From Patescibacteria group bacterium (lineage in GTDB: Bacteria; Patescibacteriota; Minisyncoccia; Phycocordibacterales; SIBU01), in NCBI GenBank assembly GCA_040390045.1, contig JAZJZC010000004.1, positions 67,157 through 131,156 on the forward strand: a DNA stretch of 64,000 bases, written 5' to 3'. Position 1 is the first letter of the stretch. Every line of letters starts with the position of its first letter. Below, piece after piece: positions 2,267 to 29,444 of this stretch. Both the position numbers and the translations under genes were made by a program. The notes under the pieces were generated by a model, which worked only from the letters and a program-made list of their open reading frames with translations, made no database searches and was not told the DNA's origin.

Positions 2267-2310
2267 AAGGAGGGGAAGGTTTTAGGGGTTAGGGTTTAGT
2301 AAACAAAAGT

Positions 2311-10750: not shown

Positions 10751-13700
10751 TTATTTAAGCTCTTTAATTTTTTCCGCAATCAAACTAATTTCGTCATTTC
10801 GATTCGAGATTTTGCCTTTGATGGCGACACATTTTTCCGCAACAAGAAGCGCTTTAAATTCTTCATAGACTTTTGGAAAAACCACCGCTTCAATAGTTCC
10901 GCTTAAATCAGCAAGGCGGAGGAACATCATCTGATCGTTTTTCTTAGTGAAAATTGGTTTGGCTTCCTCGATGATGCCGCCGAGAACTACGACCATTCCT
11001 TCCTTCATTTCCGCTTTGCATTTCACAATGTTCATGTCCCTTTTTTCTAAAACATTTTTAAATTTATCAAGCGGATGTCCCGAAATGTATAAGCCAAGGA
11101 GCTCTTTTTCCCAAATTAATTTTTCAGATGCTGTGGCAGGAGATCCTTGCGTGAGTACCAAGCCTTCATTTTCCGAAACAGTTAGTGTGTTGCCGAATAA
11201 AGAATCCTGATTTTCTATTTTTTGAGATTTTTCTTTATTGAATTGCAAAAGATTGTCCATGTTCGCCATCATCATCCCACGTTCGCCAAAGTCGTCGAGT
11301 GCGCCGGATTTAATCAAGGCTTCAATTGATTTTTTGTTAAGACTTCGGTCATGCACACGGGTCAAAAAATCTCCAAGGGATTTAAACGCACCGTTTTTCA
11401 CGCGCTCAGCAATAATGACATCGGCAATGCCTTCTCCAAAGTTTTTAATGGTTGTTAACCCAAACCTGATGCGGTCTACCGCATCAGGAGCTGTAAGCTG
11501 TAAGCTGTCAGCTTTTAGCTTCACCACCGTAAAACCTGAGTAGCTTTCATTAATCGATGGAGGCAATACCGGAATTTTCATTCGTTTACATTCCGAAATA
11601 ATTTCAGAAATTTTTTCAACGTCGCCCGAGTCGGCGGTGAGTACGGCAGACATATAGATCGCGGGGAAGTTGGCTTTCATGTAGGCAGTTTGATATGCCA
11701 CACGTCCGTAACTTGCAGCGTGGGCCTTACCGAAGCCGTATGCAGCAAAAGGCTCGATCAGTTTCCAAAGTTCATCGGCCTTTTTCTCGCTCATGCCATT
11801 TTTTACCAGACCTTTCAACAGTTTTTCTTTTTGCGCGTCCATCTCAGCGACAATTTTCTTTCCCATGGCTTTGCGGAGTTTGTCTGCTTCGAGCCACGAG
11901 TATCCTGCGAGTTCAATAGCGATTAACATAACATCTTCCTGGTAGGTAATAACTCCATACGACGCCGAAAGAATATTTTTCATGCGTGGGTCGAGATATT
12001 TAACCAGCGATGGATTATGTTTTCGCTCAATATACTGAGGGATCGATTCCATAGGACCCGGACGATAGAGAGCCACCATGGCGTTGATATCATGAATGCT
12101 TGTAGGTCGCAGATCTTTAAGATAGTGAGTCATACCTGAACCACTGAGTTGAAAAAGTCCACCGGTAATTCCAAGCGCGAGCATCGCAAAAGTTTTTTTG
12201 TCATCAATCGGAATGGTGTCAATATCAATATCTACATTTTCTAATTTTTTAGCCAGCAAAACTGCATCAGCAAGAATGGAAAGATTTTTAATTCCAAGAA
12301 AGTCGAATTTCAAAAGCCCGACATCCTCCATAACATACATATCGTATTGAGTAATAATTTTTCCTTCGCCTTTAGGATCAAACTGCAGTGGGGTAAAATC
12401 TGTTAAAGGTCTAGGGGAAATAACCACACCAGCCGCATGTACCGAAATGTGTCGGGCGCAACCCTCAATTTTTTTAGCTAAATCAATAATTTCCGTGACC
12501 TCGGGTTCATTTTTGTATCTTTTTTTCAGCTCAGGAACTAACTCCATAGCTCGATCGATTGACATGGGAAAACCTTGCGAACCCATTGGGATCATTTTTG
12601 AAATACCATCACCCAAACTATACGGATGCCCGAGCGCTCGCGCCACATCTCTCACGGACCCACGCGCCATCATAGTTCCAAAAGTTCCCACCTGCGCCAC
12701 TTTATCCTCGCCGTACTTTTTTCGCGCATATGTAATCAGTTCATCGCGTCGCGAATCGGCAATGTCCATGTCAATATCGGGAGCAGAAGGTCGTTCGGGA
12801 TTGAGAAATCTCTCGAAGGGCAATTTATATTCAATGGGATTTACGGTACTAATGTAGGCGAGGTAGGAAACCATCGATCCAGCGGCCGAACCTCTCGTGG
12901 TACTAAAAATTTTCTCACTTCTGGCGTGACGAAGAAGGTCAGACACCACTAAAAAATATGGAGAGTAGCCTTTATCGCGAATGATTTTCAATTCATACTC
13001 AACACGATCAGTTACTTCTTTTGTCGCTTCAATGCTTCGAGTTTTGATACCGTCGTACACTAACGCCTTCAACTCCTCATCAAGAGTTCTTCCGGAGGCA
13101 ACTTTGTAGTCGGGGAAAACCCATTTGCCGAGCTCGATTTCCAGGTTGCACATATCAGCAATCTTGGCGTTGTTTTCAAGGGCTTCGGGCAACTTTTTAA
13201 AAAATTTTTGCGCGTCCTTGTCAGATATGAAAGAAAAATCGCCGGTGTTTTCAGCTTGACCGGCCCGCTCGCTCAATTCAGCGTTGCTGTTTACAAGGGT
13301 TAATGTATTCCGCGCTGTCTTGTCTTTTTCAGAAAGGTAGTAGACATCGTGGCAGGCTACAATATTCGTTTGAGTTTGTTTGGCAAAATCGATCAACATT
13401 TCCATTCTCTTGTCGTGTCCTTCAACCTCGGGGAAATGAGTGATTTCCAAAAAGAAATTATCGTTGCCATACATTTTTTTATACCAGTCAGCAATTTTTG
13501 TGGCGTTTTCAATATCGCCAGACTTAAGCGCCTCCAAAATTTGACTATTAAATGATGGCGCGATTGCCACTAAACCTTCAGAATATTTTTCGATAAGTTC
13601 TGCGTCGATTCTCGGCTTGTAATAGAAGCCGTCAAAATGCGATTCGGTTACCAGTTTAATTAAATTTTTGTAACCAATAAGATTTTTGGCAAGCAAAACC

Positions 13701-13966
13701 AATCGTGTGCGTCTATTGTCGACACCGGCTTGTTTGTCTTGTCGCTTTCGAGCCGCGACATAGGCGTCAATGCCGATGATTGGTTTGATGCCCTGAGCTT
13801 TACATTCTTTGTAAAATTCAATGGCACCGTACATGTTACCGTTGTCAGTAAGAGCCAGAGACGTCATTTCAGACTTTTTTGCAGCCGCAACGAGCTCGTC
13901 AATCTTTGGAAGTGCAGACAGTAAGCTGTAGTGACTATGGACGTGTAAATGTGTAAACTTTGTCAT
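10751..13966 (-). CDS. dnaE: DNA polymerase III alpha subunit
   Basis: PHP domain start HLHVHSHYSLL; 1071 aa. Confidence 0.92.
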   Translation of the reverse strand: MTKFTHLHVHSHYSLLSALPKIDELVAAAKKSEMTSLALTDNGNMYGAIEFYKECKAQGIKPIIGIDAYVAARKRQDKQAGVDNRRTRLVLLAKNLIGYKNLIKLVTESHFDGFYYKPRIDAELIEKYSEGLVAIAPSFNSQILEALKSGDIENATKIADWYKKMYGNDNFFLEITHFPEVEGHDKRMEMLIDFAKQTQTNIVACHDVYYLSEKDKTARNTLTLVNSNAELSERAGQAENTGDFSFISDKDAQKFFKKLPEALENNAKIADMCNLEIELGKWVFPDYKVASGRTLDEELKALVYDGIKTRSIEATKEVTDRVEYELKIIRDKGYSPYFLVVSDLLRHARSEKIFSTTRGSAAGSMVSYLAYISTVNPIEYKLPFERFLNPERPSAPDIDMDIADSRRDELITYARKKYGEDKVAQVGTFGTMMARGSVRDVARALGHPYSLGDGISKMIPMGSQGFPMSIDRAMELVPELKKRYKNEPEVTEIIDLAKKIEGCARHISVHAAGVVISPRPLTDFTPLQFDPKGEGKIITQYDMYVMEDVGLLKFDFLGIKNLSILADAVLLAKKLENVDIDIDTIPIDDKKTFAMLALGITGGLFQLSGSGMTHYLKDLRPTSIHDINAMVALYRPGPMESIPQYIERKHNPSLVKYLDPRMKNILSASYGVITYQEDVMLIAIELAGYSWLEADKLRKAMGKKIVAEMDAQKEKLLKGLVKNGMSEKKADELWKLIEPFAAYGFGKAHAASYGRVAYQTAYMKANFPAIYMSAVLTADSGDVEKISEIISECKRMKIPVLPPSINESYSGFTVVKLKADSLQLTAPDAVDRIRFGLTTIKNFGEGIADVIIAERVKNGAFKSLGDFLTRVHDRSLNKKSIEALIKSGALDDFGERGMMMANMDNLLQFNKEKSQKIENQDSLFGNTLTVSENEGLVLTQGSPATASEKLIWEKELLGLYISGHPLDKFKNVLEKRDMNIVKCKAEMKEGMVVVLGGIIEEAKPIFTKKNDQMMFLRLADLSGTIEAVVFPKVYEEFKALLVAEKCVAIKGKISNRNDEISLIAEKIKELK

Positions 13967-15910: not shown

Positions 15911-16813
15911 ATGGCTAACAGGCACCTTGCAAGATCGACAGTTCTACAAACCCTCTTCGAGTGGGATTTTAATGGTCAGCGAAAGACTGACGATGTAGAA
16001 ACGATTCTCAAGAGAGATATCGCCGAATTTGCTCCTGGCGTTAGTGATTCGTCGTTCATGACTGAGCTCCTCCGTTCTATTTGCGACAAGATGTCGGACA
16101 TTGATACGATTATTGAAAAGGCTGCTCCAGATTGGCCAATCAATAAAATTTCTATTATCGATCGCAACATCTTGCGCATCGGTCTTTACGAATTGCTTTT
16201 TGCGGACAAAACTGAAGTGCCGGAAAAAGTGGCGATCAATGAAGCGATTGAGTTGGCGAAAACATTCGGCGGCGAAAATAGCGGCAAATTTGTAAACGGC
16301 GTTCTTGGTTCAGTCTACAAAGAACTTGGAGAGCCCGGCAAAGATGCTGTTTCCCAGAAGAGTAAACGCAAAGCTGAAGTTCCGTACGAAAAAATGCCTA
16401 TCCAAAAATTGGGAGGCGCAGTGGTCTATGCTAAGGATGGTGGTGAAATTTATCTCGCGCTTGTCCACGATATTTTCGGTCATTGGACGCTCTCAAAAGG
16501 AAAAATTGAAGTTGATGAGGACGTTAAGCAAGGTACGACGAGAGAAATGAAGGAAGAACTTGGCCTCGATGTTTCGATTCAAACAGATCTTGGAAAAAAT
16601 GAATACATCGCATCCGATCCAACTCTTGGTAAAATTCGCAAACAAGTAAATTACTTTTTGGCAGAAGCCAAGTATGAAAATTTAACTCTTGGTACTTCAG
16701 GTGGACTCGACGACGCACGATGGTACAAAATGGCGGATATTGTTTCTCTTAATTTGTACAATGACATTTTGCCAATCGTCACCAAAGCGGTCAATATATT
16801 ACTTAAAAAGTAG
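15911..16813 (+). CDS. nusB: NusB antitermination factor fused to C-terminal NUDIX hydrolase domain
   Basis: NusB motifs DRNILRIGLYELLF and INEAIELAKTFGGENSGKFVNGVLG. Canonical Nudix box GKIEVDEDVKQGTTREMKEELGL. Confidence 0.8.
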   Translation: MANRHLARSTVLQTLFEWDFNGQRKTDDVETILKRDIAEFAPGVSDSSFMTELLRSICDKMSDIDTIIEKAAPDWPINKISIIDRNILRIGLYELLFADKTEVPEKVAINEAIELAKTFGGENSGKFVNGVLGSVYKELGEPGKDAVSQKSKRKAEVPYEKMPIQKLGGAVVYAKDGGEIYLALVHDIFGHWTLSKGKIEVDEDVKQGTTREMKEELGLDVSIQTDLGKNEYIASDPTLGKIRKQVNYFLAEAKYENLTLGTSGGLDDARWYKMADIVSLNLYNDILPIVTKAVNILLKK

Positions 16814-16894
16814 ATAGTCGGTAGTCAGTAGTTTGTAGAAAATCCGTTTTTCCTTACTACCAACTACCCACTACAATACTAACCTACTACTCCA
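16814..16894. repeat. GTAG/CTAC-rich palindromic intergenic repeat
   Basis: tagatagtcggtagtcagtagtttgtag ... ctaccaactacccactac forms a long imperfect inverted repeat. Same family at 287-320 and 28817-28935. Confidence 0.6.
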
Positions 16895-17584
16895 ATGGAT
16901 TTTTCAAAATTCGAAGACCAACTCGGTATTTATTTCAAAAACAAAAGTCTTTTACAGACGGCTTTTACGCATAGATCATATATCAACGAAAACCGAAAAG
17001 GTGCGCTTGAACACAACGAACGCCTGGAGTTTTTGGGCGACGCTGTCTTAGAGTTGATCGCGACGCATTTTTTGTATAACAAATATCCTGACAAAGCAGA
17101 AGGGGATTTGACGTCCTACCGTTCTGCGCTTGTTAACGCCGTGACACTTTCTGAAATTGCCACGAAACTCGGCATGAATGAATTTCTTCTTTTATCAAAA
17201 GGGGAAACCAAGGATACTGGCCGCGCTCGACAATATATTTTGGCAAACACTATGGAATCTTTTATTGGCGCCCTGTTTCTCGATCAAGGATATGACGCGG
17301 CACAAGTATTTATAAAACAATACATTCTCTCGCTCATCGACAACATTGTTGCCAAAAAAAGTTGGCTTGACGCAAAAAGTTTTTTTCAGGAAAAAGCTCA
17401 GGAAGAAGAGGGAATTACTCCGTCTTATGTAGTACTTAAAGAAACTGGTCCCGATCACGATAAACAATTTACGGTTGCAGTAGAAATTGGTCGCGAACGT
17501 GTTGCCACAGGCGAGGGAAAATCAAAACAAGAAGCTGAACAGAGTGCGGCACAGGAGGGACTGAAAGCCAAGAGTTGGAATTAG
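16895..17584 (+). CDS. rnc: ribonuclease III
   Basis: ERLEFLGDAVLE signature and a C-terminal dsRBD. Confidence 0.9.
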   Translation: MDFSKFEDQLGIYFKNKSLLQTAFTHRSYINENRKGALEHNERLEFLGDAVLELIATHFLYNKYPDKAEGDLTSYRSALVNAVTLSEIATKLGMNEFLLLSKGETKDTGRARQYILANTMESFIGALFLDQGYDAAQVFIKQYILSLIDNIVAKKSWLDAKSFFQEKAQEEEGITPSYVVLKETGPDHDKQFTVAVEIGRERVATGEGKSKQEAEQSAAQEGLKAKSWN

Positions 17585-17614
17585 GAATCAAGAATTAGGA
17601 ATTATGGGAAAGAA

Positions 17615-20881: not shown

Positions 20882-22855
20882 CTATTTACTATCTATCAGC
20901 ACGTAATCCAACGTTTTTCTCTCCATATCAGCCAAAACAACTTTAAATCGGACAGAGTCACCCAAAGTATATTTCTTTTTAGTTTTTTCACCGATGAGAC
21001 AATAATTTTTTTGATCGAGTTTGTAAAAATCTCCCGCGAGATCGCGAAGTTTAACCATGCCTTCACAGCGAGTTTCTTTTTCTTCGATGTACATACCCCA
21101 CTCAGTCACACCGGAAATGATGCCGTTGAAACTTTGACCAACTTTAGTTTGCATGTACTCAACTTGTTTATATTTTTTCGAAGCGCGCTCAGCTTCAGCG
21201 GCGGCAATTTCTTGTTCAGAGTTGGCGCTGGCCATTTTTTCATAGGAATGCCATTCATGTTCAGGAATTTTAGTGCCATTTAAATGATGGAATAAAACTC
21301 GATGTACCAGAAGGTCAGCGTATCGGCGAATAGGGGATGTAAAGTGAGTGTAGTATTCGAAGGCCAAACCAAAGTGTCCAATGTTACCCGTCGAATAAAT
21401 AGCCTTGGCCATCGATCGTACTGCCGCAGTTTTAATCATCGATTCTTCGGCGCGTCCCTCAATCTGCTTGAACAGCATTTGCAAATCCTTTGCGGAAACT
21501 TTGCCATTCGTGTTTGGCAACTCGTGTCCAAGAGCCTTAAGAAAAATTCCAAGCTCGGCAATTTTCTCCTGATTTGGCGTATCGTGAATACGATAAATAA
21601 AAGGCTCTTTACTTTTGTGTTTCTCCCGAGCTTTAAAAATAAATTCGGCAACTTCCTTGTTGGCCAAAAGCATGTACTCCTCGACGAGCTTATGAGTATC
21701 AAGTCTCTCTTTTTTGTAAATTTTAACCGGTCTGCCCAGCACATCGAGTTCGAAGCGTACCTCGTCCTGCTCAAAGTCGATAGCACCAGCAGAAAACTTT
21801 CGTTTCTGCATTTTTTTAGCCATCTCATTGAGCGCTAGCAGTGCTTCCGTATGTTCTACTGATTTTCCATCGAGTACATCCTGTGCAGATTCGTACGTGA
21901 ATCGTTTTGCAGAATGAATGATTGTTTTTCCAAACCATTTTTCTTTTACGATTCCTTCTTTGTTTAAAATAAAAACGGCAGAAAATGTTAAACGATCCTC
22001 GTCAGGTTTCAAACTACAAACCTCGTTTGAAAGTGCCTCAGGAAGCATGGGAATTGTGCGATCAACAAGATAAACAGAAAATCCTCGGCGCAAGGCCTCA
22101 CGATCGAGCTCAGTTTTTTCCTTTACGTAATGAGAAACATCAGCAATGTGCACTCCAATTTCGTAACTATCCTCTGAAATCTTTTTATAGGAAATAGCAT
22201 CGTCAAAATCTTTGGCATCAATTGGGTCAATGGTGAAAGTTAATGTGTTTCTGAAATCACGACGCTTACTGAGTTCATCGGCAGATACGTGGACTCCAAG
22301 TTTAGAAATTTTTTCCGCCTCATGTTCGACACTGTGGGGAAATGAGGAATCAAAACCTTTTTCAAGCGCGATACCAAGCATTTCGGCGTTATTCTCTCCC
22401 TTTTTACCAATAATTTGGAGAAGTTCACCTGTTGGATTTTTATTTGGATCAGACCATTCGAGGAATTTTACAAGTACTTTCATGCCAACTGCTTTCTTGG
22501 CCATCTCGTTTGAGCCGACGTTAATCTCCTTGTAGACTTTTTTGTCATCAGGCAAGAGAAAAAAACGCCCCTTGTCCATTTGAAGGGTTCCGACAAATTG
22601 CAATTTAGCCCGTTTCAGAATTTTCAAAACCTTTCCCACTTTTCTACCGCGTACAGATTTTGGAAGTACGGCAATTTCCACCTCGTCGAAATGAAGTGCG
22701 GTGTTTAGATTTTCCGGTTCAATTAGAATATCGACATCTTCATTTTCGAGTTCAACAAAACCCATGCCTTTTCCAGCAATTCTGATTTTTCCGACATGTT
22801 TTTTTGATTCAACGTTCGATGGGTGAGGTTGGTCGTTTTTTTGACGTTTGTTCAT
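20882..22855 (-). CDS. rnr: ribonuclease R / RNase II family exoribonuclease
   Basis: N-terminal OB/cold-shock region, RNB domain, C-terminal S1. Confidence 0.85.
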   Translation of the reverse strand: MNKRQKNDQPHPSNVESKKHVGKIRIAGKGMGFVELENEDVDILIEPENLNTALHFDEVEIAVLPKSVRGRKVGKVLKILKRAKLQFVGTLQMDKGRFFLLPDDKKVYKEINVGSNEMAKKAVGMKVLVKFLEWSDPNKNPTGELLQIIGKKGENNAEMLGIALEKGFDSSFPHSVEHEAEKISKLGVHVSADELSKRRDFRNTLTFTIDPIDAKDFDDAISYKKISEDSYEIGVHIADVSHYVKEKTELDREALRRGFSVYLVDRTIPMLPEALSNEVCSLKPDEDRLTFSAVFILNKEGIVKEKWFGKTIIHSAKRFTYESAQDVLDGKSVEHTEALLALNEMAKKMQKRKFSAGAIDFEQDEVRFELDVLGRPVKIYKKERLDTHKLVEEYMLLANKEVAEFIFKAREKHKSKEPFIYRIHDTPNQEKIAELGIFLKALGHELPNTNGKVSAKDLQMLFKQIEGRAEESMIKTAAVRSMAKAIYSTGNIGHFGLAFEYYTHFTSPIRRYADLLVHRVLFHHLNGTKIPEHEWHSYEKMASANSEQEIAAAEAERASKKYKQVEYMQTKVGQSFNGIISGVTEWGMYIEEKETRCEGMVKLRDLAGDFYKLDQKNYCLIGEKTKKKYTLGDSVRFKVVLADMERKTLDYVLIDSK

Positions 22856-23007
22856 TACTGGGGCATTGTAGCAGAAAAGACGGTACTAAGCCATTTAAGC
22901 ATTTTACGATTGACATTGTCCCACTTCAGAACAAAATTGAAAGTTGAGCTTGCTTTGATTGCATTATTTTCCAAACCGGCGCTCTGTTCATTGCGACCGG
23001 TTTTCTT

Positions 23008-23036
23008 TTGACTTTTTTTGTCTGTACTGGTAAGCT
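23008..23036 (+). promoter_or_regulatory. promoter candidate for rpsP (possibly leaderless)
   Basis: TTGACT-17-TAAGCT ends 6 nt before ATG 23043. Confidence 0.35.
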
Positions 23037-23042
23037 ATGCGG

Positions 23043-23423
23043 ATGTTAAAAATCCGATTACAACGAGTGGGCAGAACGAATGTTCCGACTTTTCGCGTAG
23101 TTTTGACTGACTCAAAGAACAGCACTAAAAGTGGACGTTTTTTGGAGATCCTTGGTTCATACGATACTCGCAAGGATAGTGAGAAAAAAGTTAACGCAGA
23201 GCGTGTTAAATACTGGATTTCAAAAGGCGCACAGGTTTCAGGAACTCTTCACAACTTTTTAATACACACCAAAGTAATAACTGGTAAAAAAATTAACGTT
23301 TTGCCAAAGAAAACCCCAATTAAGAAAGAAGAAGTTGCGAAGGTAGAAAAGCCAGCTGAAGCCGCAGCTCCTACCGAAGTTGCTCCATCAGTCGAAGCCG
23401 CCTCTGAAGCAGTCAAATCATAA
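23043..23423 (+). CDS. rpsP: 30S ribosomal protein S16
   Basis: MLKIRLQRVGRTNVPTFRVVLTDSKN..GRFLEILG. Ala/Glu-rich C-terminal extension. Confidence 0.88.
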   Translation: MLKIRLQRVGRTNVPTFRVVLTDSKNSTKSGRFLEILGSYDTRKDSEKKVNAERVKYWISKGAQVSGTLHNFLIHTKVITGKKINVLPKKTPIKKEEVAKVEKPAEAAAPTEVAPSVEAASEAVKS

Positions 23424-23434
23424 ATTACGGTTTA

Positions 23435-23469
23435 AAACCCCCGCCGCGCCTTGAGCGGCGGGGGTTTTG
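23435..23469 (+). terminator. rho-independent terminator
   Basis: aaacccccgccgc-gccttga-gcggcgggggtttt. Confidence 0.8.
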
Positions 23470-23607
23470 TCAACTTTACACTTTTAACTTTACACTTTAT
23501 ACTGTCTCTAGCAGTACGTAGCGAGGCGGAATGAATTAACTAACCGCATACTCGGTCGAAACGACTGTCTATCGAGTTTAAAAAACACATAATAATAAAA
23601 TACTGAA

Positions 23608-23925
23608 ATGAAACAAGAAAGCGATGTAATCTTTTTAGAGTACGTAGTGAAGGCTTTAGTTGATAATCCAAACGATGTTAAAGTTGTCCGCACAGTCGAT
23701 GAGATGGGTGTTTTGTTAACCCTTTCTTTGAATCCTGCTGATATGGGAAAAATTATCGGCCGCATGGGCAATACCGCAAAGGCTATTCGAACCCTTCTTC
23801 GAGTTGTTGGAATGAAAAATAATGCCCGTGTTAATCTTAAAATCAACGAACCAGAAGGTGCCGCTCCACGAGAAATAAAGACAAACAAGACGGTGGATGA
23901 GGCGATGGAGGACCTCAAGATATAA
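23608..23925 (+). CDS. khpA: KH-domain RNA-binding protein (KhpA/YlqC-like)
   Basis: KH GxxG motif IIGRMGNTAKAIR. Conserved position after rpsP. Confidence 0.75.
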   Translation: MKQESDVIFLEYVVKALVDNPNDVKVVRTVDEMGVLLTLSLNPADMGKIIGRMGNTAKAIRTLLRVVGMKNNARVNLKINEPEGAAPREIKTNKTVDEAMEDLKI

Positions 23926-23955
23926 CCGGTAGATTCAAGAATAAAACCAAAAAAA

Positions 23956-23991
23956 ATACCGCCGCGACTCCGTCGCGGCGGTATTTTTTTT
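23956..23991 (+). terminator. rho-independent terminator
   Basis: aataccgccgcgac-tcc-gtcgcggcggtatt followed by T8. Confidence 0.8.
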
Positions 23992-24054
23992 GACAAAAAC
24001 AACTGATATGTTTAGTATTCGCGCTAGTTCGGTACAAATTCAAAAATTTAATGC

Positions 24055-24804
24055 ATGAACACTCCAAAGATCAATATTCTGATTAACGGCTGGACCGGCA
24101 AGATGGGCACCGCCTTACTCGCCTGCGTAGAAAAACATCCAGGGCTTGAGGTCGTCGGAAAAATCTGTCACTCGGATCAGGTGGACGGCAAACTTCTCGA
24201 TGTCGATGTTGTCGTGGATTTCGTCAATGATCCCGGGGTAAGCACCTCCATGGCAGTGACCTGCGCTGCAATTAAAAAATCAATCGTTATTGGCACTACC
24301 GGTCACACCGACGAACAGCGTCAGATCATTGAGGACATGGCAAGAATCACTCCCATTGTCATGACCTCAAATTTCTCGATCGGAGCCAACTTGCTTTTTT
24401 GGCTCAGTGGCGTCGTCACGGAAAAAGTTGGAATTGGCGTCGACATAGAAATTGTTGAGATGCATCACTGCCTCAAAAAGGATGCACCGAGTGGCACGGC
24501 GCTGACGTTGGCAGAAATTATTGCCGCGGCTCGAAGCAAACAACTTCATGATGTTGTCCAATTTGGCCGACACGGAACGACTGGACCGCGAAGCCAAGAT
24601 GAGATCGGGATTCACTCGATTCGCGGCGGCGATGTGGTCGGGGATCACACGGTACTGTTTGCCGCCATCGGCGAACGAATCGAATTGACGCACAAGGCTT
24701 CCAGCCGCAACACGTTCGCCGAAGGCGCACTACGTGCTGCAGAGTGGGTTGTAAAGCAAAAACCTGGTTTGTACGACATGCAGGACGTTCTCGGTCTCCG
24801 TTGA
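24055..24804 (+). CDS. dapB: 4-hydroxy-tetrahydrodipicolinate reductase
   Basis: EIVEMHHCLKKDAPSGTA signature. Confidence 0.88.
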   Translation: MNTPKINILINGWTGKMGTALLACVEKHPGLEVVGKICHSDQVDGKLLDVDVVVDFVNDPGVSTSMAVTCAAIKKSIVIGTTGHTDEQRQIIEDMARITPIVMTSNFSIGANLLFWLSGVVTEKVGIGVDIEIVEMHHCLKKDAPSGTALTLAEIIAAARSKQLHDVVQFGRHGTTGPRSQDEIGIHSIRGGDVVGDHTVLFAAIGERIELTHKASSRNTFAEGALRAAEWVVKQKPGLYDMQDVLGLR

Positions 24805-24898
24805 TTTCTCTACCCCAGCCTTTCGCTGGGTTTTTTCTTGACCAAAGTTTGGTTTCAGTTATTATGCCCTTAGTTCAAATTTTTGAAAGATTTTCTCA

Positions 24899-25210
24899 AT
24901 GAATGTAAGTATCAACGTTTTGGCACCGCCGGCTGGTGTGCGCCAAGGGTGTAAAAAATGCAAGCGCATTTTCGTTCAGGGAAAGGCCGTTATCGAAGTT
25001 TCCCTCAATGGCGTAATGTATTTTCTCGCTCCGCACGAGCCTTTCAGGTGTTGCGGTGAAGAGAGAAAATCAGCTATTGTTTTTCCATCAAAGGAAGCGG
25101 CGATTGCAACCGCAGAGGATCTTCGTGTCATTTACAATAGTGGTAATGGAGAAACGGTTATGCTCGTTGCCCAACCGAAAGATTTAACCGATCGTTGGCG
25201 CAGCAATTAA
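24899..25210 (+). CDS. hypothetical Cys-containing small protein
   Basis: 103-aa ORF downstream of a TTGACC-17-ATTATG promoter-like site. No known motif. Confidence 0.4.
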   Translation: MNVSINVLAPPAGVRQGCKKCKRIFVQGKAVIEVSLNGVMYFLAPHEPFRCCGEERKSAIVFPSKEAAIATAEDLRVIYNSGNGETVMLVAQPKDLTDRWRSN

Positions 25211-25266
25211 TTTTGCTGTTTTTTCTTGCCTTTTTTGCCTAAACCCTATACCCTAAACGTCACATC

Positions 25267-25995
25267 ATGACTTTCCACTTCATAACCCTATTCCCACACG
25301 CTTTCGACTCCTATCTCGGGGAGTCGATTTTGAAACGTGCAATTGAAGACAAAAAAATAAAAGTAAAGTTTTATAATCCTCGAGATTTTGCAGAAAACAA
25401 ACACGATCGAATAGACCGAAAACCATACGGTGGAGGCCCAGGTATGGTAATTCAAGCTGAACCGGTAATTCGCGCGATTGAAAAAGCGTTGATGACAGCA
25501 GGGTATAGGGTAGAGGGTAAAGGGTATAGACGAATTAAAAGTAGTAAAAAACTAAACCCTAAAACTTACACCCTTAACCCTGTGATAGTCTGGCTCAGTC
25601 CTTCCGGCAAACAATTTACCAATGAGTACGCTAAAAAAGTAGCGGGAAAGTTTGTGGACATTATTATTATCTGTGGCCGATATGAAGGAATCGATGCCCG
25701 AGTTAAAAAAGTTTTCAAAGTTGAAGAACTTTCAGTCGGACCATTTGTGCTCACTGGTGGGGAATTGCCGGCGATGCTTATGATCGATGTGATCTCACGA
25801 CAAATTCCAGGGATACTCGGTGATTTTAATTCTCTCGAGGAATCTCGCGTTGCCAGCCCAGATGTGTATACGCGGCCAGTAATTTTTAAATTTAAAGGAA
25901 AGAATTTTCGTGTTCCGAAAATTCTTCTTTCAGGTCACGCTGCCAAAATTAAGGAGTGGAAAGAATCAAAAATTAAAACAAAACCAAATAAGTAA
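25267..25995 (+). CDS. trmD: tRNA (guanine37-N1)-methyltransferase
   Basis: FITLFPHAF, RPYGGGPGMV, SPQG-like and GRYEGID motifs. Carries a roughly 20-aa in-frame insertion relative to E. coli TrmD. Confidence 0.9.
   Translation: MTFHFITLFPHAFDSYLGESILKRAIEDKKIKVKFYNPRDFAENKHDRIDRKPYGGGPGMVIQAEPVIRAIEKALMTAGYRVEGKGYRRIKSSKKLNPKTYTLNPVIVWLSPSGKQFTNEYAKKVAGKFVDIIIICGRYEGIDARVKKVFKVEELSVGPFVLTGGELPAMLMIDVISRQIPGILGDFNSLEESRVASPDVYTRPVIFKFKGKNFRVPKILLSGHAAKIKEWKESKIKTKPNK
25498..25583. repeat. TIR-bearing TAGGGT-repeat element inserted in-frame within trmD
   Basis: Left arm cagggtatagggtagagggtaaagggtat. Right arm aaaccctaaaacttacacccttaaccctg (terminal cagggt/accctg). Encodes an extra loop MTAGYRVEGKGYRRIKSSKKLNPKTYTLNP. 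Confidence 0.6.
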
Positions 25996-26045
25996 CCCCC
26001 CCCCCCCGTCTTTTTCGCCACACTACTTTAAAAATAAACAGTACC

Positions 26046-26073
26046 TTGTAACCTTTCGAGCGAATGGTATAAT
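26046..26073 (+). promoter_or_regulatory. sigma70-like promoter of arsR-family gene overlapped by inverted copy of the 27-bp element
   Basis: TTGTAA-16-TATAAT. Element copy taacctttcgagcgaatggt at 26049-26068 sits between -35 and -10. ATG follows 7 nt after -10. Confidence 0.5.
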
Positions 26074-26079
26074 GCTTTG

Positions 26080-26349
26080 ATGAGTGATTTTAAAAAATTG
26101 GAAAAGTTGCTAAAGGTTGCTGGCAACCAAAGACGACTCGCAATACTTGCGTACCTCAAAAAAGTAAGAGTGTCATCTGTTGGAAAAATTTCTGAAAATC
26201 TTAATATGTCATATCACGCCGCCTCGAAGCATTTGCGCTTGTTGCTGAACGCTGAGTTGCTCGATCGCGAACAGAAAAAATTTGAGGCTCACTATACACT
26301 TTCAAAAAATCAGCATAGACTCGTTAGTAATTTACTGGAGCTACTTTAG
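26080..26349 (+). CDS. ArsR/SmtB-family HTH transcriptional regulator
   Basis: RRLAILAYLKK...VGKISENLNMSYHAASKHLRLL winged-HTH pattern. Confidence 0.7.
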   Translation: MSDFKKLEKLLKVAGNQRRLAILAYLKKVRVSSVGKISENLNMSYHAASKHLRLLLNAELLDREQKKFEAHYTLSKNQHRLVSNLLELL

Positions 26350-26364
26350 ACCCAACCTCACTTA

Positions 26365-26391
26365 TTTAACCATTCGCTCGAAAGGTTAAAT
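26365..26391. repeat. 27-bp palindromic element tttaaccattcgctcgaaaggttaaat
   Basis: Identical to 8953-8979. Inverted relative to 26049-26068. Confidence 0.8.
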
Positions 26392-26431
26392 GAGAATAAA
26401 ACAACTTTTTAACTAAATCCGTACTTAATTT

Positions 26432-27118
26432 CTATCTGATTTCGTAAATCACATCTTTTCGCTCAACCACAATTTTCCAGCCATTCATTTTAGCAAAACG
26501 GTACAGCGCTTGGTTTGGATTAAAACAAATTGGATTTTCCACCAGTTCGAGCATTGGAATATCACCCTCGGTGTCACCAATTCCGTAAGAACCCTTCAAT
26601 GTTAAATTTTCCTTGGCAACTGCACGACGGACAATGTTGGCTTTGTTTGCAATAAGATGAAGGTCAACGACTTCACCGGTAAATTTATCTGACGGGCCAA
26701 GTTCATAAAATCTCCCGTACACTTTATTAAATCCCAGTCGTTTACAAAAAGCGTCGAGCAATCCTTTTGGTGACTGAGACACTGCAAGCAAAAAATAACC
26801 TTTTCGTTTTAATTTCTTAACGAGGTCGCGCGTATAGCGATACATTTTATTTTTATTGGCCTCAACCACCGCAAGACCGATTTTTTCAAACTCATGGTAG
26901 TCCACACCCTTGAGATATTTCATAAATGTGTCGATAATGGCCTGGATGTAGTCCTCATAACTTCCTTCTCGGTTAGTCCAGCGCTCAAATTGTAATTGAT
27001 ACAACGCCCGGCTTTTTTTGGGGAAAACGCCTTCGTCAATCAGGGCTTCAACCAATTCGATTAGTAAACTTGAACGAAAAATTGTTCCATCAATATCGAA
27101 AACTGCGACTTTTTTCAT
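26432..27118 (-). CDS. HAD-superfamily hydrolase
   Basis: Motif I VFDIDGTI and a C-terminal GDTEGD. Confidence 0.75.
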   Translation of the reverse strand: MKKVAVFDIDGTIFRSSLLIELVEALIDEGVFPKKSRALYQLQFERWTNREGSYEDYIQAIIDTFMKYLKGVDYHEFEKIGLAVVEANKNKMYRYTRDLVKKLKRKGYFLLAVSQSPKGLLDAFCKRLGFNKVYGRFYELGPSDKFTGEVVDLHLIANKANIVRRAVAKENLTLKGSYGIGDTEGDIPMLELVENPICFNPNQALYRFAKMNGWKIVVERKDVIYEIR

Positions 27119-27193
27119 GTTTCAATTGTACAAAGTTGTGAAGTAAAAAGCCACAATTAAAATTACGAATAAAAAACTCCGTTCGTACATAAG

Positions 27194-27478
27194 TTATATA
27201 CGTGACGGAGGGAGCAAAGAGGGGAATAATAGCAGGATTATAAATACGAAGTTAAAAGCTGCCAATATAATTTTAAAACCCCTCTGCAGGTTTCCGATCT
27301 TCATTACAATTTGCAATATCCACGCTGATGCAGCGTAAATGCAAGAAAAAAATAATGCTGTCGTAAGGGTTGCTCCCCCAGGCGTTTTCGTAGGTATGCC
27401 CGCGCCCATCATGACTAGTAAAAAAGTTATCAAACCCATAAACGGGGCTGAGAGAGCGAAAAGTCTCAAAAATCTCAT
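27194..27478 (-). CDS. small multi-pass membrane protein (hypothetical)
   Basis: 94 aa with about 3 hydrophobic helices, co-oriented upstream of the HAD gene. Confidence 0.35.
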   Translation of the reverse strand: MRFLRLFALSAPFMGLITFLLVMMGAGIPTKTPGGATLTTALFFSCIYAASAWILQIVMKIGNLQRGFKIILAAFNFVFIILLLFPSLLPPSRI

Positions 27479-27756
27479 AAATATCCAGTTCGTTTTTCTA
27501 AATAATTTATATCACAACCAAGCTATAAATCCAGTACTTGCTTTAGATAGGCCCTTTCTGTTAGACTTATGCCACAAATCAATAGTATCCAGAGGATGGT
27601 GAGAGTCATTGGCTTTAAGACCCATCCAGCAACTTGTCCCGAGCGTAGTCGAGGGATAAAGTGCTCAACCCAATCCCGTAAGGGAAAGATAACCGGTCAA
27701 ACTCTTTCCCAAACGGCGAAAGTTTTTTTTATAAATTTATTACGTTAATTCACTCA

Positions 27757-28816: not shown

Positions 28817-28935
28817 GGGAGAGAGTAGATAGTCGGTAGATGGTAGTAGGTAGACCAGATTAAAGAAACCCCCGGCGCGCTTTGCGCGCCGGGGGTTTCA
28901 ACAAGTCTACCCACTACCCACTAATTACTACTTTC
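28817..28935. repeat. GTAG/CTAC palindromic repeat enclosing a terminator hairpin
   Basis: tagatagtcggtagatggtagtaggtagac ... terminator ... gtctacccactacccactaattactac. Inner hairpin aaacccccggcgcgc-tttg-cgcgccgggggttt at 28866-28898. Confidence 0.7.
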
Positions 28936-29444
28936 TATTTCACAATAATCACTCCGAGATACTTTGACGTTGGCATACCGGTGTTCAAGTTATAAAATGG
29001 CCACGCACCGGCTGTTGTGAAAGCAAAATAAAATTTACCACCTCTACCAAGAGGTCCAGACTCCTGGGAAAATCCTGGGTAGGTCGTTTCTGGTTTATCT
29101 GTTGAGCCGTGAATTACCATAGCCATACTACTGGAATTTCTAAATTCAACACTTTCACCACGCTTAATTTCAAGAGTCGATGGTACAAAGCCTTTATCGG
29201 TGAGCTCAACTACATTTCCAGTTGGTTTTGGCGTTGGGGTAATAACCTGAGTTGGTGTCTGAGTCATTGGTTTTTTTGTAACTGGCGCAGCTGTTTTAAC
29301 TACCGGCATCTCAGCCTGTGAGTTTGTAGTGTCAACGACTGGCGGAACTTCCGATTCATTCGTTTTGTTAGCAATAAGGATAATTCCGACAACGACAACT
29401 ACGGCAACTCCACCCCAAACCCACTTTGTATAATCTTTTTGCAT
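28935..29444 (-). CDS. membrane-anchored cupredoxin-like domain protein
   Basis: N-terminal TM helix, Pro/Thr linker, and VELTDKGFVPSTLEIKRGESVEF cupredoxin-like strand pattern. Metal ligands not evident. Confidence 0.45.
   Translation of the reverse strand: MQKDYTKWVWGGVAVVVVVGIILIANKTNESEVPPVVDTTNSQAEMPVVKTAAPVTKKPMTQTPTQVITPTPKPTGNVVELTDKGFVPSTLEIKRGESVEFRNSSSMAMVIHGSTDKPETTYPGFSQESGPLGRGGKFYFAFTTAGAWPFYNLNTGMPTSKYLGVIIVK

What the first reader, a model, noticed from the sequence alone, without database searches (positions are those of the whole stretch)
25498..25583. In-frame insertion of a TAGGGT-repeat, TIR-bearing miniature element inside trmD; related telomere-like repeats at 2251-2299 and 25239-25258
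An 86-bp segment is built from agggta-type repeats with terminal inverted repeats (cagggt...accctg). It sits in the trmD coding frame and adds about 20 residues to a loop relative to E. coli TrmD, without breaking the frame. The same motif, in ccctaa/ccctata orientation, lies 10-25 bp upstream of the trmD start. A GGTTTTAGGGGTTAGGGTTTAG run follows the metalloprotease gene. This suggests a small mobile or recombinogenic G-rich repeat family that can insert into coding sequence. The G-runs are also G-quadruplex-capable.
Basis: seen in the sequence. Interest (0 to 1): 0.6.

Follow-up and report, generated by a model that had tools for sequence, protein, structure and literature searches.

The report
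Inverted 7-base repeat arrays inside trmD
An essential tRNA-methylase gene of an uncultivated Patescibacteria bacterium carries, in frame, two facing runs of a 7-base repeat; this is one case of a repeat class that fills gene boundaries and a few essential genes in this clade, and it does not behave like a jumping element.

Summary
Window 25499-25582 (84 nt, 28 codons) lies in frame in trmD (25267-25995). It has 4.3 tandem AGGGTAN heptamers, a 22-nt A-rich spacer, and about 4 inverted CTAAACC-type heptamers. It adds about 25 residues to a loop that is short in solved TrmDs and in more distant relatives.

The MITE reading is not supported. I found no target-site duplication and no second copy in 64 kb, and the "TIRs" are simply the outer repeat units.

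The element belongs to a clade-wide excess of 7-nt tandem arrays: 13 observed against 0.5 expected in the window, and 73 against 0.3 over 1.1 Mb of relatives. These arrays lie after stop codons, before start codons and around terminators. A few lie in frame in essential genes (trmD, dnaE, ThrRS, RNase R).

In nine loci the right arm sits in the same register but uses four different units, each homogeneous within its array. This points to one old array evolving in concert under a no-stop, in-frame constraint.

The closest known kinds are the heptameric SSR pairs of Xanthomonas and Nostoc, and Rickettsia RPE-like coding palindromes. I rate it a new variant of a known kind, of moderate interest. 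The function of the arrays is unproven.

The parts
25267..25995 (+). trmD coding sequence (242 aa), host of the element. Catalytic and AdoMet-knot residues are intact.
   Evidence: ORF. Pfam tRNA_m1G_MT, E = 1.4e-36. PDB TrmD hits at E = 4e-44. The columns invariant across 68 homologues are all present in the query. The AF2 model matches TrmD structures.
25499..25582 (+). The element: 84 nt = 28 codons, an inverted pair of heptamer arrays. Encodes (A)GYRVEGKGYRRIKSSKKLNPKTYTLNP.
   Evidence: Inverted repeat I1, 31-nt arms, 71% complementary. RNA fold z = -4.4. Codon layout.
25500..25529 (+). Left arm: AGGGTAT AGGGTAG AGGGTAA AGGGTAT AG (4.3 units). Contains the only canonical G4 motif of the window (25501-25524). 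The 7th base of unit 2 is G, which avoids an in-frame TAG.
   Evidence: TRF; G4 scan; codons.
25530..25551 (+). A-rich spacer (RRIKSSKK region). Diverges freely: 43% identity to L001.
25552..25582 (+). Right arm: CTAAACC CTAAAAC TTACACC CTTAACC CTG. In register with the arrays of relatives. Its third unit is broken (TAC) exactly where TAA would fall in frame.
25238..25258 (+). CCTAAAC CCTATAC CCTAAAC array, 9-29 nt upstream of the trmD ATG and just after a terminator-like hairpin with a T tract (25200-25229). Homologous upstream arrays of the CTAnAnn type occur in most crown-clade relatives.
   Evidence: TRF; terminator-like site at 25200-25219; relatives.
2277..2299 (+). Heptamer array between stop codon and terminator (GGTTTTA GGGGTTA GGGTTTA G), after the M10 metallopeptidase gene. 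It places TAG in all three frames.
11465..11521 (-). Second coding example in the window: a perfect 10-bp-stem hairpin (11465-11488) plus an (AGCTGTA)n array (11489-11521), in frame in dnaE. Gives a 14-aa insert, KLKADSLQLTAPDA.
   Evidence: The PDB alignment to Taq Pol III alpha shows a 14-residue gap.
28818..28940 (.). Intergenic counterpart: (GTAGNNN)n array, G+C-rich bidirectional terminator hairpin, then inverted (CTACNNN)n array. Lies between convergent genes (metK and a minus-strand gene).
16804..16890 (.). Intergenic inverted pair of heptamer arrays (GTAGNNN / CTACNNN), upstream of the RNase III gene.
23470..23508 (+). Heptamer array (AACTTTA/CACTTTT) after the rpsP terminator. An array of the same unit type sits at the orthologous site in relative L002 (9031-9067).
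17573..17607 (+). Heptamer array (GGAATTA)n overlapping the RNase III stop codon, ahead of a terminator hairpin.

Best explanation
The 84-nt segment is a pair of inverted heptanucleotide simple-sequence-repeat arrays, about 4 units each, separated by an A-rich spacer. It is carried in frame in a permissive loop of TrmD, the connection between helix 64-77 and the strand that leads into the SPxG AdoMet loop.

It is one member of a clade-specific population of 7-nt tandem arrays in a Taylorbacteria-like Patescibacteria lineage. These arrays mostly occupy gene boundaries: after stop codons, before start codons, and on both sides of terminator hairpins. Occasionally they persist inside loops of essential enzymes.

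Shown:
- The trmD array is old. It is shared in the same register across the crown clade and an outgroup.
- Its units evolve in concert within each array.
- It is filtered by selection to stay a multiple of 3 nt and free of stop codons.

Inferred:
- Arrays are made and homogenised by replication slippage, template switching or gene conversion between units, not by transposition.
- The encoded ~25-residue basic protrusion is tolerated rather than required. The side of the fold opposite the active site is an inference from topology.
- The hairpin and G4 potential are by-products of the repeat composition.
For: 7-nt period excess:
- Window: 13 arrays against 0.5 expected at lag 7, while other periods stay near background.
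- 1.1 Mb of relatives: 73 against 0.3 expected, concentrated in the crown clade that also has the enlarged TrmD loops.

Same architecture elsewhere:
- In intergenic DNA of the window and relatives, arrays flank terminators as inverted pairs.
- In frame in dnaE with a 14-aa insert, in ThrRS with an 18-aa insert and in RNase R with a 12-aa insert.

Loop evolution:
- Distant relatives have a short loop without repeats.
- In 9 loci the right arm starts with in-frame CTA at -39, -32, -25 and -18 from the Trp codon, with units CTAAACC, CTACACG, CTACAAA or CTAAAAG.
- Within-array unit identity is 0.85, against 0.66 between same-register units of different loci. None of 5000 permutations reaches 0.85.

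Stop avoidance:
- Only arrays whose unit contains TAA have a broken third unit, at the codon where TAA would be in frame: TAC here, TTA in L001.

Nucleotide-level conservation against L001:
- Arms are 88% and 83% identical, with third-codon-position identity 17/21.
- The rest of the gene shows 47% third-position identity (binomial p = 0.0017) and the spacer is 43% identical.

No sign of transposition:
- No other copy in the window.

Literature:
- Heptameric SSRs are over-represented in bacteria. In Xanthomonas they mostly have 4 units, are mostly intergenic and close to the upstream ORF, and often occur as convergent pairs. 7-32% are intragenic. Polymerase slippage has been proposed as the cause (PMC4692102).
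- Heptamer repeats give stop codons in all three frames, so only one orientation survives inside ORFs (PMC4679880).
Against: - Slippage by single units would frameshift an essential gene. Homogenisation inside an ORF therefore needs conversion-like events or +/-3-unit steps, and neither was observed directly.
- Units are enriched for TAG/CTA (49% against 12% in random heptamers from the same loci). Plain slippage does not predict this. It hints at a sequence-specific process or at selection.
- Unit types do not follow the TrmD tree. CTAAACC occurs in the window and in outgroup L001. CTACACG occurs in L002 and in L007/L008/L015. This needs ancestral polymorphism, recombination or convergence.
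- In the same loop, other relatives carry truly dispersed palindromic elements. Insertion does happen at this site in the clade.
- Only 64 kb of this genome was available.
Confidence: 0.7

Rival explanations
1. A miniature inverted-repeat or RPE-like mobile palindromic element inserted in frame into trmD.
For: - The segment is palindromic, its length is a multiple of 3, and it sits in a surface loop, as Rickettsia RPEs do.
- In relatives the very same loop holds dispersed palindromes. A REP-like GTCATTCCCGC...GCGGGAATCCAG element is in L014, L017 and L020, with further intergenic copies in L010, L014 and L017. An ATTCT...AGAAT palindrome is in L004 and L037, with a 25/28-identical copy outside trmD in L011.
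- The same [AGGGTAN]x4 - spacer - [CCCTAAA]x4 layout occurs between unrelated genes in unrelated metagenome contigs: L110 (pyrG-kdsA, 58% GC), L097 and L165.
Against: - The arms are tandem repeats, not unique termini.
- There is no consistent target-site duplication. TGAT occurs near both ends in the window but not in L001.
- There is no other copy in 64 kb, and no transposase was seen among the ORFs examined.
- The spacer is unconserved between window and L001 while the arms are conserved. A recently moved element would show a conserved spacer as well.
- Arrays with different units share one register across the clade. This argues for one ancient event followed by in-situ evolution.
Confidence: 0.1
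2. A functional nucleic-acid structure within the trmD mRNA or DNA. Candidates are a long bulged hairpin, a G-quadruplex, or pairing of the left arm with the complementary array in the 5' leader. Such a structure would tune translation, pausing or mRNA stability.
For: - Hairpin z-scores are -3.5 to -4.4 in the window and -5.0 in L001.
- The arms are conserved at synonymous positions between window and L001.
- This is the only G4 motif in the window, and G-rich heptamer repeats form G4 in vitro in other bacteria (PMC4692102).
- The leader array 25233-25254 is 82% complementary to the left arm.
- 11 of 18 enlarged loops fold significantly better than shuffles.
Against: - 7 of 18 enlarged loops have no structure beyond chance (L002, L005, L007, L008, L012, L015, L019; z from -1.2 to +1.2), although they keep the arrays.
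- In L008 the two arms are not complementary.
- G-runs exist only in the window and L001.
- L001's leader array (CTAAAAA/CTATAAA) is not complementary to its AGGGTAT arm.
- There is no compensatory change to test, because the paired G/C runs are invariant.
- No Rfam family matches. The best hit is let-7 at 21.9 bits against a gathering score of 53.5.
Confidence: 0.1
3. An adaptive protein extension: the basic ~25-residue loop contributes to tRNA or partner binding in this reduced-genome lineage.
For: - The loop is Lys/Arg-rich in nearly all crown-clade members.
- AF2 with an alignment predicts a small beta-hairpin for residues 80-89, with block pLDDT 81.
- The loop has been retained over long divergence.
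Against: - The peptide sequence is not conserved between lineages. It simply follows the repeat unit (LNPKTYTLNP, LQTTNYKLQT, LHATRYTLHP, LKAKSYKLKA).
- Some crown-clade members have lost it (L011, L013, L016).
- Residues 91-100 have pLDDT 57.
- From fold topology, which is an inference, the site is at the N-terminal end of strand beta-4, opposite the AdoMet/tRNA site.
- Conservation is at third codon positions, not at the amino-acid level only.
Confidence: 0.08
4. An assembly or gene-calling artefact in a metagenome-assembled genome.
For: The source is a MAG, and repeats can be mis-assembled.
Against: - An independent assembly (L001, ENA/JGI) carries the homologous element at the same site with the same length.
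- Dozens of independent assemblies carry arrays in register.
- The ORF is intact with all invariant residues.
Confidence: 0.02

Closest known systems
Heptameric simple sequence repeats of bacteria: Xanthomonas (GGGAATC)n, Nostoc/Anabaena (GGGGAYT)n, and the STRR heptamers of Calothrix (PMC4692102)
   Same: - 7-nt unit.
- Typically about four units.
- Strong over-representation of this period only.
- Mostly intergenic and close to the end of the upstream ORF.
- Frequent convergent pairs that form inverted repeats.
- A minority lie inside genes.
- G-rich versions match G4 motifs.
- Arrays are conserved at the same gene context but vary in length and sequence between relatives.
   Different: - Here many different units coexist in one genome, instead of one dominant G-rich unit.
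- Units are enriched for TAG/CTA.
- The host is a Patescibacteria lineage.
- The arrays sit in frame in conserved catalytic enzymes (TrmD, DnaE, ThrRS, RNase R).
- They show in-register concerted evolution across a clade, which I did not find described in the papers read.
TAACTGA heptamer direct repeats of Beggiatoaceae, Cyanobacteria and Bacteroidetes (PMC4679880)
   Same: - Heptamer direct repeats of 2-6 copies.
- Mostly a few nucleotides upstream of start codons or overlapping stop codons.
- Stop codons in all three frames in one orientation, so only the other orientation occurs inside ORFs.
- ORF-internal copies are mostly at tolerant positions.
   Different: - There a single unit is shared across phyla and inverted pairs are nearly absent (one indirect repeat).
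- Here units are diverse and lineage-specific, and inverted pairs are common.
Rickettsia palindromic elements (RPE), 'selfish DNA in protein-coding genes' (known from the literature, e.g. cited in PMC1779305 and PMC2996958)
   Same: A palindromic segment of roughly 100 nt is retained in frame in essential genes. It is placed in loops, leaves the host protein intact, and adds a peptide of no evident function.
   Different: - RPEs are dispersed multi-copy elements with a family consensus of unique sequence.
- This element is built from tandem heptamers, has no second copy in the window, and evolves in situ.
REP / GTAG-tagged palindromic repeats and MITEs (PMC3733652, PMC10969869)
   Same: - Small palindromes, mostly downstream of ORFs.
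- Often in inverted pairs.
- Sometimes inside replication or repair genes.
- May be transcribed as RNA hairpins.
- Many units here contain GTAG/CTAC.
   Different: - There is no single conserved stem-loop with an unpaired tag.
- No RAYT or transposase was seen.
- There are no target-site duplications.
- The internal structure is tandem with a 7-nt period.
Coding palindromes in Nematomorpha mitochondrial genes (PMC6649704)
   Same: Inverted repeats embedded in protein-coding sequence, with both arms translated.
   Different: Those are long, perfect and non-tandem, and they occur in animal mitochondria.

Membership tests
Heptameric SSR arrays (bacterial 7-nt tandem repeats) | Head-to-tail copies of a 7-nt unit, at least 3 copies | tested here: met
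   TRF reports period 7, 4.3 copies, 86% matches at 25500-25529, and period 7, 3.0 copies at 25238-25258. The right arm has 4 units in register.
Heptameric SSR arrays (bacterial 7-nt tandem repeats) | Genome-level excess of period 7 over other periods and over chance | tested here: met
   Window: 13 against 0.5 expected. Relatives: 73 against 0.3 expected. Periods 4-13 other than 7 are near background, with modest excess at 6, 9 and 12.
Heptameric SSR arrays (bacterial 7-nt tandem repeats) | Preferred position at ORF boundaries, and occurrence as convergent pairs | tested here: met
   Arrays lie after stop codons, before start codons and on both sides of terminators. Convergent pairs are at 16804-16890 and 28818-28940.
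Heptameric SSR arrays (bacterial 7-nt tandem repeats) | Length polymorphism by slippage within populations | not testable with these tools
   This needs read-level population data for this organism.
MITE | Terminal inverted repeats of unique sequence | tested here: inconclusive
   The ends CAGGGTA...TAACCCTG are inverted, but they are just the outer units of tandem arrays.
MITE | Target-site duplication flanking the element | tested here: not met
   The flanks are TGATGACAG | element | TGATAGTC in the window and GAGAAATG | element | CGAATAAT in L001. There is no consistent direct repeat.
MITE | Multiple dispersed, near-identical copies in the genome | tested here: not met
   No further copy in 64 kb. 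The rest of the genome could not be searched, because the genome is not in the GTDB representative set and no encoding contig is on record.
MITE | A related autonomous element or transposase with the same ends | not tested
   No transposase was noticed among the ORFs examined. The whole genome was not available.
Rickettsia palindromic elements (RPE) | Palindromic, in-frame insertion in a protein-coding gene at a tolerant loop | tested here: met
Rickettsia palindromic elements (RPE) | Membership of a dispersed sequence family with a consensus (tens to hundreds of copies) | tested here: not met
   Single copy in the window. Relatives carry different units at the same site.
REP / RAYT-associated palindromes | Short conserved stem-loop with an unpaired GTAG or CGTC tag, in high copy number | tested here: not met
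   The query element has no GTAG tag and no conserved single stem-loop. Other arrays in the window contain GTAG, but as tandem units.
G-quadruplex-forming sequence | Four runs of at least 3 G separated by 1-7 nt | tested here: met
   GGGTATAGGGTAGAGGGTAAAGGG at 25501-25524 is the only such motif in the window. L001 keeps four G-runs.
G-quadruplex-forming sequence | Actual folding into a G4 in competition with the hairpin | not testable with these tools
   This needs CD, UV melting or probing. The complementary arm 22 nt away favours a duplex.
TrmD (tRNA m1G37 methyltransferase), host gene | SPOUT/TrmD fold and conserved AdoMet-knot motifs | tested here: met
   Pfam PF01746. PDB hits at E = 4e-44. 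Invariant P112, G114, GRYEG-D 137-143, TGGE 163-166 and D174. Foldseek top hits are all TrmD.

The most novel reading that the evidence does not exclude
The arrays are not passive slippage products. Instead, a sequence-directed process in this Patescibacteria clade builds and homogenises CTA/TAG-containing heptamer arrays.

At gene boundaries the arrays would act as three-frame translational stops and as extensions of terminator stems, and possibly as leader or promoter elements in front of genes such as trmD. When they land in essential genes they would be 'domesticated' by breaking every third unit.

On this reading, the in-register arrays with different, internally homogeneous units would record active gene conversion inside an essential ORF.
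Probability: 0.15. Interest if true: 0.7.

Novelty: new variant of a known kind. Interest (0 to 1): 0.5.

Why it matters
- It shows that essential, highly conserved enzymes of reduced-genome Patescibacteria can carry translated simple-sequence repeats for long evolutionary times.
- It gives a clean natural example of concerted evolution of a tandem array under a reading-frame and stop-codon constraint.
- It has practical value for annotation. Odd low-complexity peptides such as LNPKTYTLNP, LQTTNYKLQT, LHATRYTLH or LSSSRKRGSRLDSRLRGNDK in proteins of this clade are translated repeat DNA, not domains.
- It extends the little-studied class of bacterial heptameric repeats to a new phylum.
- It offers a tractable test site, the trmD loop, for asking whether such arrays have any nucleic-acid-level function.

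Tried and rejected
1. A conserved RNA hairpin at this trmD position across all relatives. A sliding 80-nt MFE placed the gene's most stable window in the loop in only 10 of 71 genes. Folding of each enlarged loop gave 7 of 18 with no excess structure. Rejected as a general feature.
2. Co-variation between the 5'-leader array and the in-ORF array. It holds in the window (82% complementary) but not in L001, L008 or others. Rejected.
3. A telomere or telomerase-type origin. The right arm resembles the plant telomere unit CCCTAAA, but other arrays in the same genome have unrelated units. Rejected.
4. A known RNA family. The Rfam E-value scan of 22500-27500 gave only sub-threshold chance hits, including let-7 at 21.9 bits on the element.
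5. The metagenome scan for (AGGGTAN)3. It returned at least 120 stretches from very diverse DNA (26-71% GC), many of them long arrays at contig ends. None encoded TrmD.
6. Single-sequence AlphaFold gave a useless model, pLDDT 31.6. The alignment-based run was used instead.
7. Exact-sequence look-up of the query TrmD found no contig on record, so the rest of the genome could not be reached.
8. The first ORF-finding regexes failed for some loci and were replaced by tblastn-anchored coordinates.
Full report
**What is there**

The ORF 25267-25995 (+) encodes a 242-aa TrmD. It matches Pfam tRNA_m1G_MT at E = 1.4e-36 and solved TrmD chains at E = 4e-44. All residues invariant among 68 homologues are present.

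Codons 78-105 (25499-25582, 84 nt) form an imperfect inverted repeat. The arms are 31 nt long, 71% complementary and 22 nt apart.
- Left arm: AGGGTAT AGGGTAG AGGGTAA AGGGTAT AG (TRF period 7, 4.3 copies).
- Right arm: CTAAACC CTAAAAC TTACACC CTTAACC CTG.

As RNA the segment folds into a long hairpin of 5-bp helices separated by 2x2 internal loops (-32.3 kcal/mol, z = -4.4).

Against S. aureus TrmD the alignment breaks at query residue 79 and resumes at 107, while the solved chain advances by two residues. The segment therefore adds about 25 residues.

- CCTAAAC x3 at 25238-25258, just upstream of the ATG.
- GGTTTTAGGGGTTAGGGTTTAG at 2278-2299, between the stop codon of an M10 peptidase gene and its terminator.

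AGGGT-type arrays occur 10 times against 0.58 expected, nearly all in these three places.

**Organism and relatives**

The protein is 100% identical to a TrmD of a 'Patescibacteria group bacterium' MAG. The nearest homologues are Candidatus Taylorbacteria and other Parcubacteria.

Among 120 close homologues, the segment between the PVIRAIEKA helix and the IIWLSP strand varies from no extra residues to about 50. Many loop peptides are plain translations of heptamer repeats:
- LQTTNYKLQT = (CTACAAA)n
- LHATRYTLH = (CTACACG)n
- LKAKSYKLKA ~ (CTAAAAG)n

DNA of 73 related loci confirms this. Distant relatives (70% identity or less) have a short, repeat-free loop such as KAKGKKNAKII. A crown clade has enlarged loops made of:
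- inverted heptamer arrays;
- a palindrome plus a heptamer array;
- a single direct array;
- in three loci, a REP-like GTCATTCCCGC...GCGGGAATCCAG element that also occurs in intergenic DNA of the same contigs.

**A clade-wide excess of 7-nt arrays**

Self-matching at lag 7 finds 13 arrays in the window against 0.5 expected. Other periods are near background. Over 1.1 Mb of relatives it finds 73 against 0.3 expected. These are concentrated in the same crown clade that has the enlarged loops. More distant relatives have almost none.

The arrays have many different units. They lie in four kinds of place:
- directly after stop codons and before terminator hairpins;
- immediately upstream of start codons, including trmD in most crown loci;
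- as inverted pairs on both sides of terminator hairpins (window 28818-28940 and 16804-16890; L005, L010);
- in frame inside genes.

The coding cases are:
- window dnaE, a 14-aa insert against Taq Pol III alpha;
- ThrRS in L008, an 18-aa insert against 1nyq;
- RNase R in L015 and L017, a 12-aa insert against 8cdu.

The trmD element is therefore one instance of a general feature, and it is not G-rich by necessity.

**One old array evolving in concert**

In nine loci the right arm begins with an in-frame CTA at -39, -32, -25 and -18 nt from the conserved Trp codon. The units differ between loci: CTAAACC in the window and L001; CTACACG in L002, L007, L008 and L015; CTACAAA in L004; CTAAAAG in L006 and L009.

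Units within one array are 85% identical. Same-register units of different loci are 66% identical. None of 5000 permutations reaches the observed within-array value. Independent insertions at the same nucleotide and phase are implausible. One ancestral array with homogenisation of units fits the data.

Selection on the frame is visible. A unit containing TAA would give an in-frame stop at every third unit. Exactly that unit is broken in the window (TAC), in L001 (TTA) and in L006. Stop-free units (CTACACG, CTACAAA) form perfect arrays. In the left arm, the G at the seventh base of unit 2 avoids an in-frame TAG.

**Nucleotide-level conservation**

L001 is 79% identical in protein outside the loop and lies outside the crown clade, whose members are 81-92% identical to each other. 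Even so, it has the same AGGGTAN / CCCTAAA pair.

| Region (window vs L001) | Nucleotide identity | Third-codon-position identity |
|---|---|---|
| Left arm | 88% | 17/21 (both arms together) |
| Right arm | 83% | 17/21 (both arms together) |
| Rest of gene | 72% | 47% |
| Spacer | 43% | not computed |

The binomial p for the third-position excess in the arms is 0.0017.

Conserved arms with a diverged spacer argue against a recent transfer of the whole element. They argue for homogenisation of, or selection on, the repeat units themselves.

**Structure and function tests**

Hairpin potential is not general. Of 18 enlarged loops, 11 fold better than shuffles. Seven do not, including all of the CGCAAAA/CTACACG type, whose arms are not complementary.

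The G4 motif at 25501-25524 is the only one in the window, but G-runs exist only in the window and L001. The leader array is complementary to the left arm in the window but not in L001. No Rfam family matches.

AlphaFold with an alignment (mean pLDDT 75) predicts a small beta-hairpin for residues 80-89 and low confidence for residues 91-100. The conserved strand starts at residue 106, and the model matches TrmD structures. From the topology of the fold, the insert is at the N-terminal end of the strand that leads into the SPxG AdoMet loop, on the side away from the active site. This last point is an inference, not a measurement.

**Mobility tests**

There is no target-site duplication, no second copy in 64 kb, and no transposase among the ORFs examined.

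The metagenome scan for (AGGGTAN)3 returned at least 120 stretches from very diverse DNA. None was in trmD. A few have the same array-spacer-inverted-array layout between unrelated genes, for example pyrG-kdsA in a 58% GC contig. This shows that the architecture arises repeatedly. It does not show that one element moves.

**Comparison with the literature**

- Heptameric SSRs are known to be over-represented in bacteria. In Xanthomonas, (GGGAATC)n arrays mostly have four units, are about 90% intergenic and close to the upstream ORF, and form 70-75 convergent pairs per genome. They fold into G4 in vitro. In Nostoc 32% are intragenic. Polymerase slippage has been proposed as the origin (PMC4692102).
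- TAACTGA heptamers in Beggiatoaceae sit just upstream of start codons and give stop codons in all three frames, so only the reverse orientation occurs inside ORFs (PMC4679880).
- REPs occur inside replication and repair genes (PMC3733652).
- RPEs are the classic in-frame palindromes of Rickettsia.

The present case combines these known features. I did not find the following described in the papers read:
- many unit types in one genome;
- placement in frame in several essential enzymes of a Patescibacteria clade;
- in-register concerted evolution under a stop-codon filter.

**Open points**

- Units are enriched for stop trinucleotides (86% against 46%) and for TAG/CTA (49% against 12%). Simple slippage does not explain this.
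- Unit types do not follow the TrmD tree.
- Only 64 kb of this genome could be examined.

**Verdict**

The MITE interpretation is not supported. The best explanation is an ancient, in-frame pair of inverted heptameric SSR arrays maintained by concerted evolution in a permissive TrmD loop (confidence about 0.7). It is a new variant of a known kind, with interest 0.5.

Noticed in passing
window 11465-11521 (minus strand, inside dnaE 10751-13966): A perfect 10-bp-stem hairpin plus an (AGCTGTA)n heptamer array is translated in frame as KLKADSLQLTAPDA. This is a 14-residue insert relative to Taq DNA polymerase III alpha.
   Followed up: yes
L008 1303-1345 (ThrRS); L015 213-245 and L017 537-568 (RNase R): Relatives carry in-frame heptamer arrays in other essential enzymes. 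ThrRS has an 18-aa insert against PDB 1nyq. RNase R has a 12-aa insert against PDB 8cdu, at the orthologous site in two genomes.
   Followed up: yes
window 28818-28940 and 16804-16890; L005 13731-13835; L010 12877-12987: Inverted pairs of heptamer arrays flank G+C-rich terminator hairpins. They extend the potential stem to about 100 nt.
   Followed up: partly
73 arrays in window + L001-L074: Heptamer units are enriched for stop trinucleotides on at least one strand (86% against 46% of random heptamers from the same loci). They are also enriched for TAG/CTA (49% against 12%). Arrays after genes therefore put stops in all three frames.
   Followed up: partly
trmD loop of window, L001, L002, L004, L006-L009, L015: The distribution of unit types does not follow the TrmD tree. 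CTAAACC is in the window and in outgroup L001. CTACACG is in L002 and in L007/L008/L015. The cause is unexplained; it could be ancestral polymorphism, recombination or convergence.
   Followed up: partly
L014 4675-4721, L017 4309-4335, L020 4498-4535 (trmD loop); L017 1247-1273 and 11298-11324, L014 2136-2204, L010 5408-5496: A REP-like palindrome (GTCATTCCCGC...GCGGGAATCCAG, translated as LSSSRKRGSR...LDSRLRGNDK) occupies the same TrmD loop in three relatives. It also occurs in intergenic DNA of the same contigs, so it is a truly dispersed element.
   Followed up: partly
L004 874-901, L037 9362-9389 (trmD loop); L011 10522-10549 (outside trmD): A 28-nt perfect ATTCT...AGAAT palindrome sits in the TrmD loop of two distant relatives. 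A 25/28-identical copy lies about 390 bp downstream of trmD in a third genome.
   Followed up: partly
window 24055-24804: A dapB gene (DapB_N + DapB_C) lies between the khpA-like gene and the gene upstream of trmD. It is absent from the otherwise syntenic L002/L003 loci, so it looks like a local insertion.
   Followed up: no
window 25996-26007: A run of 12 C begins immediately after the trmD stop codon.
   Followed up: no
window 25228-25258 and the equivalent regions of L006, L008, L012, L015, L020: A conserved TTTTTCTTGCC(T) motif follows the upstream terminator. It is followed by a heptamer array whose second unit is CTAT-. Read as TTGCCT-N17/18-TACTAT in relatives, it could be the trmD promoter embedded in the array. 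The consensus scan did not list it in the window.
   Followed up: no
window 23470-23508 and L002 9031-9067: The heptamer array after the rpsP terminator keeps the same unit type (CTTTACA) at the orthologous site in a relative whose TrmD is 86% identical outside the loop.
   Followed up: partly
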